64,000 bases of DNA from Naegleria gruberi (lineage: Eukaryota), in NCBI GenBank assembly GCA_000004985.1, contig GG738857.1; one strand, 5' to 3'. Both the position numbers and the translations under genes were made by a program. The notes under the pieces were generated by a model. It made no database searches and was not told the origin of the DNA. It worked only from the letters and a program-made list of their open reading frames with translations. Below are positions 3,117 through 8,542 of the stretch, one piece after another; the stretch's first letter is position 1, and every line of letters starts with the position of its first letter.

Positions 3117-6100
3117 ATGTTAAACTCGGGGACATCAGCAACTGCCTCACATAGGAGGATACACAGTGCTAGTGTCTTTCAGTTCTCTCGTCCCTCCATC
3201 TATAAAAACATTTACGGACAAGAGCAAAAGAAAGAACTTCAATTCACAAATTTATCAAAAATCAACAAGGCAGCATGTTCAGCCGAATCAACAGTTATCA
3301 GTTGTAATCAGGACTTTTTTGCTTTACCATTCGGAACATATGGTAGTGTGATTAGTAGGTTTTATTTTGATGATCAAATTGCCAAATGTCATTTAAGTTA
3401 TGAAACATTCAAATATTGCTGAGGATTCAAAAGTTAGAAGAGCAAATGCCAGTCCACCACTCTTATCTGAACACTCAGGACTTGTTCACGATCACTCCTT
3501 CTCTCCATTTCTTCCATCTGATGGCACTCATCTATTTTCAACATGTTCAGCAGATTGTACTGTTAAAATTTGGAAAATTACACAAAAGGAACAAACAATT
3601 CATGGACATTGTGAAGATTTACAACAAGTTATCACATTGAAAGGTCATGATAAGAAGGTCAATACAGGAGATTTCCATCCGAGTGTGAATAATATTTTCG
3701 TGAGTGCGAGTGGAGATAATACTTTGAGAATTTGGGATATCACAACACAGAAAGATATGATTGTTTTGAGGGATGATTTTGATGATATGGTTCAATCGTG
3801 GGATTGGTCTTCAACTGCATCAGTTTTATATACCTCGAGCAGAGATACTGTGGCAAGAGTTTATGATCCTAGAACAAAGTATGCAATTGTGGTAAGTTTT
3901 CTCATAATTTTCAAAGATTAATTTCATTGGATTTAATTTGTAAAATTTATTCGAATATTATTATGTTCAATATTGGTTTGGAAAATAATGAATGGGAAAA
4001 TAACAGTCAGGAAAAGCTCACGATGGTAAGAAGGGTTTCAGAGTTGTTTGTACCAATCACGATCAATTTTTCACAGTTGGTTTCAATGGATCTGGATCTC
4101 GTGAATTTGCCTTGTGGGATTTGAGAAAAGGTATGAGAAAGGGTCCTCTCACAAGAGAAACAATCAATGACATGACACCAACCCAGCTCTTCCCATTCTA
4201 TGATTCTTCATCTCATCTTTTATATTTGGCTGGTAAGGGAGATACCAAGATGAGAGTTTATGAAATTGATAGTAATTCAGAGCCGTACGTTCACTATTTG
4301 AGTGAATTTAAGCTTACCACAACCAATACTGGTCTTGCCATGTTGCCAAAACGTTTGTGTGATACGAAATCATTCGAGGTGGCTCGTTTTATGAAGTTGA
4401 ATGTGGAGAGTGTGGAAACTTTCAATTTTTACGTTCCAAGAAAGAAGGAACAAGCCGACATCTTCCAAGAGGACTTGTATCCGCCAGTTCCAAGTGGAAA
4501 ACCATCAAACTTGTCATCAGCTGATTGGTTTGGAGGAAAGAGCTGTATGCAAGACCTTATTTCATTGAGACCACCAGAACAAGAATCCTCACCAACTGTA
4601 TCAACTGGCACAAAAATAGCAAGAGGAAGATCGTATGCCTTAAAATCTGCTCCCTCAGTTGATAATGGACTCAATACCAAAGCAAGTGATGAATTTTCGG
4701 ACTCACTCCTTATCAATTCATACGGTTTCTATTTGAATAGTTATTTGAATATTTGGCTTCTCAAGGAGATGAAATGGAAACGATTCTTCTTTGCCCTCCA
4801 CAAGACAAAGAACAATTCGGATACGAATAGCGTAATTATTTATGGTGAGAGTCCTTCTCAGGTCAAAACAATCAGAGATGAAATTTCCAATAAGGAATCC
4901 AATTTGAATAGAAATGAATTCATTTCCAAATATTCAAGATCCAAGAATTGTGGAGTGATTTTCCTTCACCAACTCGTCTACATGCACAAAGCTTACACTT
5001 TGGGAGATGAAAAATTCTCAGACAATCAAACAATTGAAGTCATGTACACAGATATTGTTCAGAATGACAATGTCACCCTATTCTTATCGAGTGATTCTGA
5101 TGAAACTGTCAAATCATGGGTTGAAACCATTATGAAGCTCTGTAAAAAGAAGGATATTGTAAAGAACAACAAGACATTCAAGGGTTACATTTTACAACTC
5201 AAGGAACATGAGGATGATATTCCTGCCTATTGGGCAAAGAGATGGTTAAGCATTACAGAGGATTACATTCTCTTGTATGCTAGTAGAAAGGCAAGCGTGC
5301 CTGAGACTGCTTTGAAATTCCCATCAAGAAAAGGATCCTCCCAGTTCTTTGATTCTCTTTCTCATTACAAGGTCTATGAAAATGTTGATGCTTGTGAATT
5401 TTGTGATAGCATGGCTCTCAATGGAGACGAAAAGAATTTGTGTTTTACTTTGAGATTTGAAGGAAAATCAAAGAAGGACAGAAATATCATTTACTTTTTA
5501 GCAAATGATGATCAACAAAAAGAGTCAATCTTTGAAATGGTCGGTATCAATAGTGGAGCTATCAAGCTTGGTGCTTCAGAAGAGGAAAAGCTCTTGGATA
5601 AACTTGGTCTTGTTGCTCATGAAGAACCAGAAAAAATTGAAGAATCTGTCACTCCAGTCGATGAAGGAATTGGTAAAATTCAAGTATGGCCAATTTCTAG
5701 CTCTATTGCCAATGAAGATATAGAAGATTTATTCTCAGTCTTTGGTAAGATTGATAATACTTTCATTGATCCAAAGGAAGGATTTGCTCTTGTGACTTAC
5801 CATCAAAAGAGTTCTGCTTTGGCAGCTGTCGTACTCAACCAATCTACATTTGATGCTAACAAGATTAATGTTCAAGTTTTGTCAGATGATGAAGTTTATG
5901 AAGCTGGCTTTGTAAAGGTTGATAATCTTAGCCCTCAATGTTCGAAACAAGATTTACGTGATTTGTTTGGAACATTTGGTACCATTCAAAAGATCAAACT
6001 GTGGCGTGATCAAAACAAATCTACAAACTTTAGTGGATTTATCAAGTTCAAGACAAAAGAACAAGCAGAGATGGCCTTAATGTTTAATGGCTCCAAATTA

Positions 6101-8542
6101 TATTACGAAGAAATCAAAGTTACTCTTGTGACTTCTGAAACTGAATTGTCATCTTTCAATCAGGGAGATGATAAGGGTTTTGTCAACGAATATGATCCTA
6201 ATGAAGTCAAAGCAGGAAGACAAAAAGTTCTCATTCAAATCAAGGGTGACAAGAAGATTAGAAGTAGAAAAGTTGAACTTTCACCAAAGAGTGTCAATTC
6301 TGGAGATATTTTCGTTCTCGATTGTGGAGCAACAATTTATGTGTGGAATGGTAAACAGACATCTCGTTTCAAGAAGGCCAGAGGTTTAGATGTTGCTACC
6401 AATTTGAAACTCAAGGAAAGAGGAGGTAATGCTAAAATTCTGATTATGGATGAAGGAAAGGATGATGAAAAGGAGTTGGAGAGACAATTCTGGAATGCCA
6501 TATTTTCCGAATACAAGGATCCATCATTCAAGAAGGAAGATTTCCTTAAAGCAATTCCAGATAAGAAGGCAGGAGGTGACGACAAGGAATTCGAAGAATA
6601 CATTGATAAGAGAACCATTCTCTTCAGAATTGGTTTCACTGAACACAAGTTTGACATGACTGCAGATCCAAAGAGACAAGATGAATATGGAAAGTATCAA
6701 TTGAAAATTGTTAGTAGAGGTGGTCAACCGGCATTGAAAGATTTCAACTCTAACTTTGTCTATGTTTTGGATTGTTGGAGTGAAATTTACATTTGGGAAG
6801 GAAAATTCTCATCCAAGCAACAACGTTCATTTGGAAGAAAATTCGCTTCCAAACTCGAACAACAAGACAAGAGACCAATTTGGACCAGCGTGTGTAAAAT
6901 TGTTGAACACTCTGAACCAATTCTATTCAAGGAGAAAATGTCAGATTATGCAGGTGCTCTTCCAATTGCTGTTTCAAGTGCAGCTCTTGAAGAAAAACAA
7001 GGCAAGGGCAATATTGCTGCCAAGAGAGAACAACATGAAATTGATGTTGATCAAATGTTAAATGCATCGATTGCTCCAAGGGAAGCCATGTTCCACGATG
7101 AATCCCTCTCTGACCAGAACGAGGTCTTTATTTGGAGAGTTGAAGGATTCGAGAAGGTTGAATTCGACTCTAAATTCTATGGACAATTATTTAGTGGAGA
7201 CAGTTTCGTCATCTTATTCAAGTATATCAAGTTTAATAAGGCAAAACATATAATCTACTTTTGGCAAGGAAGAGATTGTTCTACCAATGAGAAGGGTGCT
7301 TCTGCATTGCTAACCATCGATGTTTCTAATATTGATTTGCAAGGTGGAGATGCTCCTCAAATAAGAATAGTTCAACAAAAGGAAACTAGACATTTCTTGT
7401 CCATGTTCCATTCACATTTAGGTTTGGATTCACTCATTATCAATACTGGAAAGTGCATTACAACAGCTCCTGAGACTATTCCAATTAGGAAGAGAATAGG
7501 AGGTGTAGCTGCTTCATCAGCCACAAATGAAGATCCAAACAAGAAGGGATTCCAACAAGCTTTGGAGAATTTGATTATTTACGATGTTCGATGTGTAAAA
7601 TCTCCAATTGCTGACAATGAAAAGCTTGAAAAGACCAAAGCTATTCAAGTTGACCTCTCACCAAATGAATTCAAAAACGTGGAACAACTTTCCCGTCTTT
7701 TCAATTCTAATCACTGTCTCTTAGTATGTACAAAGGACAAGAAGGAATGTTACTTGTGGAAGGGCAAGTATCACAATCAAAAGGAGCTCGAACTCGCTGC
7801 TCACATAGCATTGGATGTGTTAAAATTACCATCCAAACTTATTTCAGTAGATGAAGGAGCAGAAAAGGATGCCTTGTGGAAATTATTTGGTTTGACTGGA
7901 CTTTCTGCAGCACCAATCAAGAAGTACATCAAATCTCAATCAGACAATATCAAGAAGAGAATAGTTCCTAAATTGTATCAATTTTCTGGAGCTACAGGTG
8001 TTGTTGATGTTGAAAGAATTTACAATTATAGTCAGGATGATTTGGATATATTTGGAGTTTTCTTCCTCGATGCCCAGGAAGCTGGTTGCTTCGTTTGGTT
8101 TGGATCTTACTCTCAACATCATGTTCAAAAGGTAGCACTGGAAACAGCCATGAAATACTGTGTGAAACATTACAATAATGGTGAAATGCTTTTACAAGTG
8201 ACACATACCTGTCAAGAACCTAGCTCATTCAAGACTGCCTTCCATGCTTGGTCTTCCTATCGTGACAAGTACATTGTCAATTATTCTAACAATAATCCAA
8301 ATGTTGTAAATAAGGAAGTTGTCATTCCTGCCATGGATATGATCAAGGAATATGCAAGAAAGACCTATTCCTACAAGACCCTACTTTCAGAACAATTACC
8401 AGCAGGAGTTGATGCCACCAAATTGGAAGAATATTTGAGTAGTGAGGAGTTCCAAATGGTTTTCAATATGGGTAGAGAGGAATTTGCAAATCTTTCCAAG
8501 TGGAAACAAGAATCTGAAAAGAGAAAGGTCTACTTGTTCTAA
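3117..8542 (+). CDS. Villidin-like actin-binding giant: coronin-type WD domain + PH domains + gelsolin repeats + C-terminal villin headpiece
   Basis: Exons 3117..3354, 3398..3891 and 4007..8542. The introns are 3355..3397 (gtaggt...taag) and 3892..4006 (gtaagt...acag).

Coronin signatures: SIYKNIYGQEQKKELQF at the N-terminus and GKGDTKMRVYEI...EVARFMKL. PH-like segments (WLLKEMKWKRFFFALHK). Gelsolin repeats (VLDCGATIYVWNGKQTS, FVYVLDCWSEIYIWEGK). Terminal headpiece LSSEEFQMVFNMGREEFANLSKWKQESEKRKVYLF. The first intron placement and the start codon are uncertain. Confidence 0.75.

What the first reader, a model, noticed from the sequence alone, without database searches (positions are those of the whole stretch)
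3117..8542. Villidin-type coronin-PH-gelsolin-headpiece giant carrying RRM-like modules
The gene combines an N-terminal coronin-like WD propeller, PH domains, several gelsolin repeats and a bona fide villin headpiece. This is the villidin architecture described in Dictyostelium.

Between the PH and gelsolin parts lie two segments with an RNA-recognition-motif flavour (about 5650..6120; KIQVWPISSSIANEDIEDLFSVFGKIDNTF...KEGFALVTY and VKVDNLSPQCSKQDLRDLFGTFGTIQKIKLWR...SGFIKFKTKEQAEMA). I do not recall these for villidin. If real, they would add RNA binding to an actin-binding scaffold.
Basis: partly seen in the sequence, partly recalled or inferred. Interest (0 to 1): 0.5.

Follow-up and report, generated by a model that had tools for sequence, protein, structure and literature searches.

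The report
Villidin-type coronin with two RRM domains
This Naegleria gene encodes a villidin-like actin-binding giant that, unlike Dictyostelium villidin, carries two real RNA-recognition-motif folds, but whether these bind RNA is not shown and their sequence makes classical RNA binding doubtful.

Summary
Exons 3117-3354, 3398-3891 and 4007-8542 (+) give a 1755-aa protein with a coronin propeller, two PH domains, two RRM_1 domains, five gelsolin repeats and a villin headpiece. Each RRM alone passes Pfam's cut-off (33.7 and 60.8 bits against 20.7). An AlphaFold model shows two beta-alpha-beta-beta-alpha-beta folds (pLDDT 85). Its best solved-structure matches are tandem RRMs such as HuR, Raver1 and PSPC1/NONO.

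The protein is a class-4 coronin (villidin type), a class already reported for Naegleria gruberi, but without mention of RRMs. The RRM pair is a clean insert of about 190 residues between a short conserved motif after the last PH domain and the gelsolin core. It occurs in 8 full-length proteins, including those of Naegleria lovaniensis, Willaertia and Acrasis. These form one clade (97.5% bootstrap). The insert is absent from D. discoideum villidin and every other class-4 coronin examined from Amoebozoa, Filasterea and chytrids.

RNA binding is unproven. RRM1 is acidic and lacks the RNP aromatic residues. RRM2 keeps one aromatic residue and two conserved lysines. This is a new variant of a known kind, of moderate interest.

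The parts
3117..3354 (+). CDS exon 1 (aa 1-79 plus one base). Holds the start codon and the N-terminal coronin signature (DUF1899 begins at aa 23, nt 3183).
   Evidence: The start at 3117 matches the N terminus of the N. lovaniensis ortholog. An upstream in-frame ATG at 3048 is not supported by orthologs.
3355..3397 (+). Intron 1 (43 nt, GT..AG).
   Evidence: Without splicing the frame stops at 3422. The spliced junction GSVI|IMKH is colinear with orthologs.
3398..3891 (+). CDS exon 2 (WD40 blades of the coronin propeller).
3892..4006 (+). Intron 2 (115 nt, GT..AG).
   Evidence: The junction YAIV|SGKAHDGKKGF is colinear with orthologs. A public model from another Naegleria assembly (P0023) reads through an intron at the same position.
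4007..8542 (+). CDS exon 3 (aa 245-1755 plus stop). One open frame holds the end of the coronin domain, both PH domains, both RRMs, five gelsolin repeats and the headpiece.
3183..4543 (+). Coronin domain (aa 23-423, interrupted by the two introns): DUF1899, WD40 propeller and WD40_4 C-terminal extension.
   Evidence: PF08953 44.1 bits, PF00400 47.2 bits, PF16300 43.5 bits.
4754..5143 (+). PH domain 1 (aa 494-623).
   Evidence: 23.5 bits alone, just under the gathering score of 25.1. The whole protein scores 30.7 bits with 2 stretches.
5177..5524 (+). PH domain 2 (aa 635-750).
   Evidence: 24.9 bits alone.
5591..5611 (+). Short conserved motif LLDKLGL, which follows the last PH domain in class-4 coronins. 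It marks the upstream edge of the insert.
5672..5887 (+). RRM1 (aa 800-871). Acidic, with degenerate RNP motifs.
   Evidence: 33.7 bits. (strands and helices at model residues 11-79)..
5906..6136 (+). RRM2 (aa 878-954). Conserved K881 and F922, and invariant K924, on the beta-sheet face.
   Evidence: 60.8 bits.. K924 is invariant.
6263..6460 (+). Gelsolin repeat 1 of 5 (aa 997-1062).
   Evidence: 48 bits.
6734..6928 (+). Gelsolin repeat 2 (aa 1154-1218).
   Evidence: 45 bits.
7157..7399 (+). Gelsolin repeat 3 (aa 1295-1375).
   Evidence: 40.9 bits.
7691..7822 (+). Gelsolin repeat 4 (aa 1473-1516). Weak when scanned alone.
   Evidence: 16.9 bits alone. Counted among the 5 stretches.
8024..8161 (+). 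Gelsolin repeat 5 (aa 1584-1629). Weak when scanned alone.
   Evidence: 15.4 bits alone. Counted among the 5 stretches.
8432..8539 (+). Villin headpiece (aa 1720-1755, C terminus ...KVYLF).
   Evidence: PF02209 50.5 bits against a cut-off of 27, full-length match 1-36/36.

Best explanation
The gene encodes the class-4 coronin (villidin ortholog) of a Naegleria species.

Inferred from the known families, the protein is an actin/membrane scaffold.
- The coronin propeller, the five gelsolin repeats and the headpiece bind F-actin.
- The PH domains bind membranes.

Shown here: in the lineage that includes Naegleria, Willaertia and Acrasis, a tandem pair of RRM folds of about 190 residues was inserted once. 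It sits between the motif that follows the last PH domain and the gelsolin core. That lineage has two PH domains where the others have three or four. The insert has stayed under selection as strong as on the gelsolin part.

Inferred role of the insert: it is a ligand-docking module.
- RRM1 is a degenerate, acidic pseudo-RRM. It is more likely a structural or protein-contact domain.
- RRM2 keeps a conserved basic and aromatic patch on the usual RNA-binding sheet (K/R881, F/Y922, invariant K924). It is the only plausible nucleic-acid-binding unit, and any binding would be non-canonical.

My estimates: about 40% that RRM2 binds RNA in vivo, about 40% that the pair serves only protein-protein contacts, and the remainder something else.
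For: Architecture.

RRM fold:
- both RRMs are above the gathering score.
- pLDDT 85.4 with two beta-alpha-beta-beta-alpha-beta units.
- top Foldseek hits are tandem RRMs.
- phmmer against the PDB finds Pab1 at 5e-18, then HuR and Prp24.

Class-4 coronin identity:
- Eckert et al. 2011 (PMC3203266) list N. gruberi among class-4 coronins.
- The profile search of 1.84 billion representatives returns class-4 coronins of Amoebozoa, Filasterea and chytrids as the multi-domain hits.

Clade-specific insert:
- The RRM pair is found in 8 full-length proteins and 2 fragments, and in none of 15 other class-4 coronins.
- PF00076 is absent from the precomputed domain lists of all dictyostelid villidins.
- Pfam of the middle regions of 8 proteins without the insert shows only PH families.
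- The gap between the flanking motifs is 188-239 residues with the insert and 21-46 without it.
- The proteins with the insert are monophyletic at 97.5% NJ bootstrap on 1024 columns that exclude the middle region.

Constraint: identity of the RRMs to orthologs equals that of the gelsolin part and exceeds that of the PH domains.

RNP analysis.
Against: No experiment bears on ligand binding.
- The aromatic residues that stack on RNA bases in canonical RRMs are mostly missing.
- RRM2 is basic only in Naegleria, Willaertia and two unnamed relatives (pI 8.1-9.1). It is acidic in Acrasis and two other members (pI about 5).
- N. lovaniensis and another Naegleria have Ile at RNP1 position 5.

Other limits:
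- The taxa of four insert-carrying sequences are unknown (GCA_037189345.1, SRR32315890, ERR14790941 and an EukProt entry), so 'Heterolobosea-specific' is an inference from the three named members.
- PH1 and PH2 each fall just under Pfam's cut-off when scanned alone.
The Pab1 and HuR alignments confirm the RRM2 assignments independently.
Confidence: 0.85

Rival explanations
1. One reading: the two RRMs are functional, canonical RNA-binding domains. The protein would then tether mRNAs or RNPs directly to cortical actin and membranes.
For: - Both domains are significant RRM_1 matches.
- The closest solved relatives are RNA-bound tandem RRMs such as HuR, PABP, CELF1 and Sxl.
- RRM2 keeps F/Y at RNP1 position 5 in 6 of 9 sequences, an invariant Lys at RNP1 position 7, and K/R at RNP2 position 2.
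- RRM2 has pI about 9 in Naegleria and Willaertia.
Against: - RRM1 lacks a conserved aromatic at all three canonical positions and is acidic in all nine sequences.
- RRM2 lacks two of the three aromatics and is acidic in three members.
- Many RRM folds with such degenerate RNPs are protein-binding.
Confidence: 0.3
2. The RRM pair is purely a protein-protein or intramolecular interaction module (a pseudo-RRM). It would act like Raver1 RRM1 binding the vinculin tail, or the RRMs of the PSPC1/NONO family within dimers. Its role would be to recruit a partner or regulate the neighbouring gelsolin core.
For: - The RNP motifs are degenerate and RRM1 is acidic.
- Raver1-(meta)vinculin and PSPC1/NONO are among the best structural and sequence matches that span both RRMs.
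- The pair lies immediately before the first gelsolin repeat.
Against: - The best-conserved surface residues (K881, F/Y922, K924) lie on the canonical nucleic-acid-binding sheet of RRM2.
- No partner is known.
- I saw no R-X-F (UHM) motif and no conserved SWQDLKD-type pseudo-RRM motif by reading the alignment.
Confidence: 0.4
3. Artefact: the RRM segment comes from a mis-joined gene model, an assembly chimera, or a chance resemblance.
For: None found. The only weak point is that no transcript data were available for this window.
Against: - There is one uninterrupted frame of 1511 codons from the coronin C terminus to the headpiece.
- The same domain order occurs in 8 independent full-length proteins. 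Three of them lie on separate contigs as single uninterrupted ORFs.
- The Pfam E-values are 1e-8 and 1e-16.
Confidence: 0.02

Closest known systems
Dictyostelium discoideum villidin (vilA) and the class-4 (Type IV) coronins of Eckert, Hammesfahr & Kollmar 2011
   Same: - The domain order is the same: N-terminal coronin domain, PH domains, about five gelsolin repeats and a C-terminal villin headpiece.
- Both share the short motif after the last PH and the conserved start of the gelsolin core (VKxGxxKxLIQ).
- N. gruberi was already listed as having a class-4 coronin (PMC3203266).
   Different: - This protein and its clade carry two RRM_1 domains (about 190 residues) between that motif and the gelsolin core, where villidin has 40 low-complexity residues.
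- Two PH domains are detected here. The other class-4 coronins scanned gave two to four PH stretches, and Eckert et al. give two to four.
- RRMs are not mentioned in PMC3203266 (0 occurrences of 'RRM').
Raver1, a tandem-RRM protein that binds vinculin, metavinculin and alpha-actinin
   Same: It is a precedent for RRM folds coupled physically to the actin cytoskeleton, with one RRM used as a protein-binding surface. Raver1 structures (3vf0, 3h2u, 3smz) are among the best matches spanning both RRMs.
   Different: Raver1 is a separate RRM protein that docks on an actin-binding protein. Here the RRMs are part of the actin-binding polypeptide itself. Identity is only 23-24%, so no specific relationship is implied.
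Canonical tandem-RRM RNA binders (HuR/ELAV, PABP RRM1-2, CELF1, Sxl)
   Same: The fold and tandem arrangement with a short linker are shared. These give the best sequence and fold scores.
   Different: The canonical RNP2 position 2 and RNP1 position 3 aromatics are absent from both RRMs. RRM1 also lacks a conserved RNP1 position 5 aromatic and is acidic.
Villin, supervillin and other gelsolin-headpiece proteins
   Same: They share gelsolin repeats followed by a villin headpiece. Supervillins are the next-best hits to the dictyostelid villidin.
   Different: They have no coronin propeller, no PH domains and no RRMs.

Membership tests
Class-4 coronin / villidin | N-terminal coronin domain (DUF1899 signature, WD40 propeller and conserved C-terminal extension) | tested here: met
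   PF08953 44.1 bits (aa 23-85), PF00400 47.2 bits, PF16300 WD40_4 43.5 bits (aa 382-423).
Class-4 coronin / villidin | PH domains between coronin and gelsolin parts (two to four according to PMC3203266) | tested here: met
   PF00169 30.7 bits against 25.1, 2 stretches. Alone, each scores 23.5 and 24.9 bits, marginally under the cut-off.
Class-4 coronin / villidin | Four to five gelsolin repeats | tested here: met
   PF00626 140.7 bits, 5 stretches. One search gives their positions. Repeats 4 and 5 are weak when scanned alone.
Class-4 coronin / villidin | Loss of villin's first gelsolin repeat (stated in PMC3203266) | not tested
   No alignment to villin G1-G6 was made.
Class-4 coronin / villidin | C-terminal villin headpiece | tested here: met
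   PF02209 50.5 bits, 1-36/36, at the extreme C terminus.
Class-4 coronin / villidin | Groups with class-4 coronins rather than short or tandem coronins | tested here: met
   the only full-length multi-domain hits of the profile are coronin-PH-gelsolin-VHP proteins. Among them are Cavenderia 'villin', the E. histolytica actin-binding protein, and Capsaspora and chytrid proteins. These align over the coronin and gelsolin parts. No tree with short or tandem coronins as outgroup was built.
Class-4 coronin / villidin | Association with membranes and the actin cytoskeleton (Gloss et al. 2003, as summarised in PMC3203266) | not testable with these tools
   Needs cell fractionation or imaging.
RRM (PF00076 RRM_1) | Significant profile match above the curated cut-off | tested here: met
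   RRM1 33.7 bits and RRM2 60.8 bits, against a cut-off of 20.7.
RRM (PF00076 RRM_1) | Beta-alpha-beta-beta-alpha-beta fold | tested here: met
   the secondary-structure order is E-H-E-E-H-E twice, with pLDDT 85.4. Foldseek probability 1.00 to tandem RRM structures.
RRM (PF00076 RRM_1) | RNP1 and RNP2 consensus with aromatic residues at RNP2 position 2 and RNP1 positions 3 and 5 | tested here: not met
   over the nine aligned sequences.
- RRM1 has Q/K/D/S/H/I at RNP2 position 2, F/R/I/H/S/T/A at RNP1 position 3, and L/V/I/F at RNP1 position 5.
- RRM2 has K/R/S at RNP2 position 2, S/C/T/V/I/L at RNP1 position 3, and F/Y in 6 of 9 at RNP1 position 5.
This feature defines classical RNA-binding RRMs, not the fold family.
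RRM (PF00076 RRM_1) | Binding of single-stranded RNA | not testable with these tools
   Needs EMSA, CLIP or similar.

The most novel reading that the evidence does not exclude
The RRM pair, through RRM2's conserved K881/F922/K924 face, binds specific mRNAs. One polypeptide would then link RNA, phosphoinositide membranes and F-actin. That would be a built-in mRNA anchoring device at the cell cortex of heterolobosean amoebae, doing the job that adaptor complexes do in other eukaryotes.
Probability: 0.25. Interest if true: 0.65.

Novelty: new variant of a known kind. Interest (0 to 1): 0.4.

Why it matters
Class-4 coronins are described as coronin-PH-gelsolin-headpiece fusions. This work shows that a whole clade of them, in Naegleria, Willaertia, Acrasis and their relatives, carries a conserved tandem RRM insert. 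I did not find the insert described: the coronin phylogeny paper does not mention it, and full-text searches found nothing.

If the insert binds RNA, it would be a rare case of RNA binding built directly into an actin/membrane scaffold. It would give a testable handle on mRNA localisation in amoebae that move and differentiate quickly, including relatives of the pathogen N. fowleri. If it binds protein, it is one more example of RRM folds recruited as docking modules.

In either case the domain description of class-4 coronins should be amended for this clade.

Tried and rejected
- **Representative search input.** I replaced it with the contiguous exon-3 translation plus truncated orthologs.
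- **Organism identity.** An exact look-up of the neighbouring eIF5A was not on record. The organism is inferred as a Naegleria species outside the N. lovaniensis group, from 61% identity.
- **Failed scripts.** The regular-expression anchors failed and Biopython bootstrapping timed out. Both were replaced, by MAFFT and by a numpy NJ bootstrap.
- **Origin of the RRM pair.** A profile of the RRM pair against 5.8 billion proteins returned only a 94%-identical fragment (P0212) and one 285-aa RRM protein at 25% identity (P0213). The source of the RRMs therefore stays unknown.
- **Recent duplication of one RRM.** This is not supported. RRM1 and RRM2 are 24% identical, no closer than to unrelated RRMs.
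- **UHM type.** I saw no R-X-F motif by reading the alignment.
- **SRSF1-type pseudo-RRM.** 'SKQDLRD' in helix 1 of RRM2 resembles SWQDLKD. It lacks the Trp, is not conserved outside Naegleria, and fits the generic RRM helix-1 consensus.
- **Gene-fusion or assembly artefact.** Rejected (see rival explanations).
- **Literature.** Gloss et al. 2003 (PMC165671) is not held. Full-text searches for coronin with RRM or Naegleria found nothing relevant.
- **Which PH domain was lost.** MAFFT places the RRM pair opposite the third PH of other lineages. Because the short motif follows the last PH in both groups, I cannot say which PH was lost.

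
Full report
**Observation**

Exons 3117-3354, 3398-3891 and 4007-8542 on the + strand join through two GT..AG introns of 43 and 115 nt. The result is a 5268-nt CDS of 1755 aa with no internal stop. Without splicing of intron 1 the frame ends at 3422. Both junctions (GSVI|IMKH and YAIV|SGKAHDGKKGF) are colinear with the orthologs from Naegleria lovaniensis, Willaertia magna and Acrasis kona. A public model from another Naegleria assembly (P0023) reads through an intron at the position of intron 2.

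Pfam on the whole protein gives:
- the coronin signature: DUF1899 at aa 23-85, WD40, and WD40_4 at aa 382-423;
- PH, 30.7 bits, two stretches;
- RRM_1, 82.7 bits, E=1.7e-23, two stretches;
- Gelsolin, 140.7 bits, five stretches;
- a full-length villin headpiece at the C terminus, 50.5 bits.

**Are the RRMs real?**

Yes.
- Scanned separately, RRM1 (aa 800-871, nt 5672-5887) scores 33.7 bits (E=3.4e-8). RRM2 (aa 878-954, nt 5906-6136) scores 60.8 bits (E=1.2e-16). The gathering score is 20.7.
- phmmer against all PDB sequences finds 133 RRM proteins at E<=0.01. The best are yeast Pab1, HuR, Prp24 and CELF1. PSPC1, SFPQ, NONO and Raver1 align across both RRMs.
- An AlphaFold2 model of aa 790-959, built on a nine-sequence alignment, has mean pLDDT 85.4. 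It shows two beta-alpha-beta-beta-alpha-beta units.
- Its best Foldseek matches in the PDB are tandem RRMs: HuR at 2.8e-12, Raver1 with metavinculin, FIR, PSPC1/NONO and CELF1.
- PH, RRM, gelsolin and headpiece all lie in one uninterrupted exon. In three other organisms the whole gene is a single uninterrupted ORF on its own contig. The combination is therefore not a model or assembly artefact.

**What the protein is**

The nearest proteins are full-length orthologs with PF00076 in their precomputed domain lists:
- N. lovaniensis, 61% identity;
- Willaertia magna, 48%;
- Acrasis kona, 35%;
- two unnamed sequences.

A further EukProt sequence (P0006) has no PF00076 in its precomputed list. A local RRM model detects both RRMs in it.

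The window therefore comes from a Naegleria species outside the N. lovaniensis group. By inference it is probably N. gruberi or a near relative. A 149-aa fragment from an ENA contig is 94% identical in the RRM region.

Eckert, Hammesfahr and Kollmar 2011 (PMC3203266) defined class-4 coronins with Dictyostelium villidin as the representative. [quoted passage not shown] They list N. gruberi as the excavate member. The text contains no mention of RRMs. Full-text searches combining coronin, Naegleria, villin headpiece and RRM found nothing further.

**Is the insert shared with villidin?**

No. A profile of the first about 1200 positions was searched against 1.84 billion representative proteins. 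After the orthologs and many tandem coronins, it returned class-4 coronins from these organisms (names):
- Cavenderia fasciculata;
- Entamoeba histolytica;
- Balamuthia;
- Rhizamoeba;
- Pyxidicula;
- Capsaspora;
- Pigoraptor;
- three chytrids.

A search seeded with the Cavenderia protein found the dictyostelid villidins. Their 90% cluster includes D. discoideum proteins of 1702-1704 aa. None of these has PF00076 in its precomputed list.

Three further tests agree.
- A local RRM model finds two strong domains in each of the 8 full-length members of the Naegleria-type group and in the fragment P0022. It finds nothing significant in 15 other class-4 coronins. Another fragment, P0091, also carries RRM1 and the start of RRM2 (seen in its sequence).
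- Pfam scans of the middle regions of eight proteins without the insert, including D. discoideum villidin, list only PH-type families even at E<=1.
- A short motif follows the last PH domain in both groups: LLDKLGL here and DIIKMFGI in D. discoideum. The gelsolin core starts with a conserved VKxGxxKxLIQ. Between these anchors there are 188-239 residues in the eight insert-carrying proteins and 21-46 in ten proteins without it. D. discoideum has 40, all low complexity.

The insert-carrying proteins have two PH domains. Pfam found two to four PH stretches in the proteins without the insert, and Eckert et al. give two to four. I cannot tell which PH was lost.

**One gain, kept under selection**

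I built a neighbour-joining tree on 1024 alignment columns that exclude the whole middle region. It recovers the eight insert-carrying proteins as one clade in 97.5% of 200 bootstraps.

Identity of the window protein to its orthologs in RRM1 and RRM2 matches that of the gelsolin part and exceeds that of the PH domains. Against Acrasis, for example, the values are 29% and 34% for the RRMs, 36% for gelsolin, and 14% and 24% for the PH domains.

RRM1 and RRM2 are only 24% identical to each other. A profile of the pair finds no informative relative outside these coronins. The donor of the RRMs is unknown.

**How it probably works**

From the known properties of its families, the protein is an actin and membrane scaffold, as reported for villidin (PMC3203266 and PMC4585930). 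This is an inference. The open question is what the RRM pair adds.

The RRM2 assignments below rest on the Pab1 and HuR alignments.
- **RNP2 position 2 (aromatic in canonical RRMs).** It is Q/K/D/S/H/I in RRM1. In RRM2 it is Lys or Arg in 8 of 9 sequences.
- **RNP1 position 3.** It is not aromatic in either domain, except for Phe in this window's RRM1.
- **RNP1 position 5.** It is L/V/I, or rarely F, in RRM1. It is F/Y in 6 of 9 sequences for RRM2.
- **RNP1 position 7 of RRM2 (K924).** It is invariant.
- **Charge.** RRM1 is acidic in all nine sequences (pI 4.3-6.4). RRM2 is basic in Naegleria, Willaertia and two unnamed members (pI 8.1-9.1). It is acidic in Acrasis and two others.

I read RRM1 as a pseudo-RRM. 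RRM2 is a non-canonical RRM whose sheet face carries a conserved Lys/aromatic/Lys patch. That patch could contact RNA or an acidic protein surface. Raver1, whose RRM1 binds the vinculin tail, is a precedent for protein docking. It is also among the best matches. Neither ligand is shown.

**Verdict**

The step to 'RNA binding' is only a hypothesis, and the sequence weakens it.

This is a clade-specific variant of a known protein class. It is visible in automated domain annotation, but it is not described in the literature I could search. I score interest at 0.4.

Noticed in passing
window 8732-9163 (-): An apparently intronless eIF5A gene of 143 aa (IF5A-like_N 107 bits, eIF-5a 48 bits). It is convergent with the coronin gene, and its stop codon lies about 190 nt from the coronin stop. 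Its exact sequence is not on record in the public gene index.
   Followed up: partly
window 3048-3116 (+): An in-frame ATG at 3048 lies 23 codons upstream of the chosen start (MFFFGSCRVILHSSTCQQSSNKK-MLNSG...). Orthologs start at the position equivalent to 3117, so the downstream ATG was kept. The true start is untested.
   Followed up: partly
P0022 and P0023 (public proteins from another Naegleria assembly): The orthologous gene appears split into two public models. P0023 (604 aa) holds the coronin part and reads through the intron that corresponds to window 3892-4006. P0022 (1439 aa) holds PH, RRM, gelsolin and headpiece. This looks like an annotation error in the public record.
   Followed up: no
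window 10196-13843 (+): An ORF of 1215 aa gives only weak coiled-coil-type matches, all below their cut-offs (ATG17_like 31.8 bits against 43). It is probably a long coiled-coil protein.
   Followed up: no
window 13882-15399 (-): An ORF of 505 aa with an alpha/beta hydrolase fold (Hydrolase_4 52 bits, Abhydrolase_1 31.6 bits).
   Followed up: no
window 1020-2717 (-): An ORF of 565 aa directly upstream of the coronin gene, on the other strand, with no Pfam match at E<=0.001.
   Followed up: no
P0212 (ENA contig of 949 nt): A 149-aa fragment is 94% identical to the window's RRM region. A very close relative of the source organism is therefore present in a public ENA assembly.
   Followed up: no
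P0124 cluster (Entamoeba histolytica class-4 coronin): The 90% cluster of the E. histolytica protein also lists 670-690-aa 'UBR-type domain' proteins and a 2289-aa model (BFU25018.1). This suggests that a fused model of two neighbouring genes joins the clusters.
   Followed up: no
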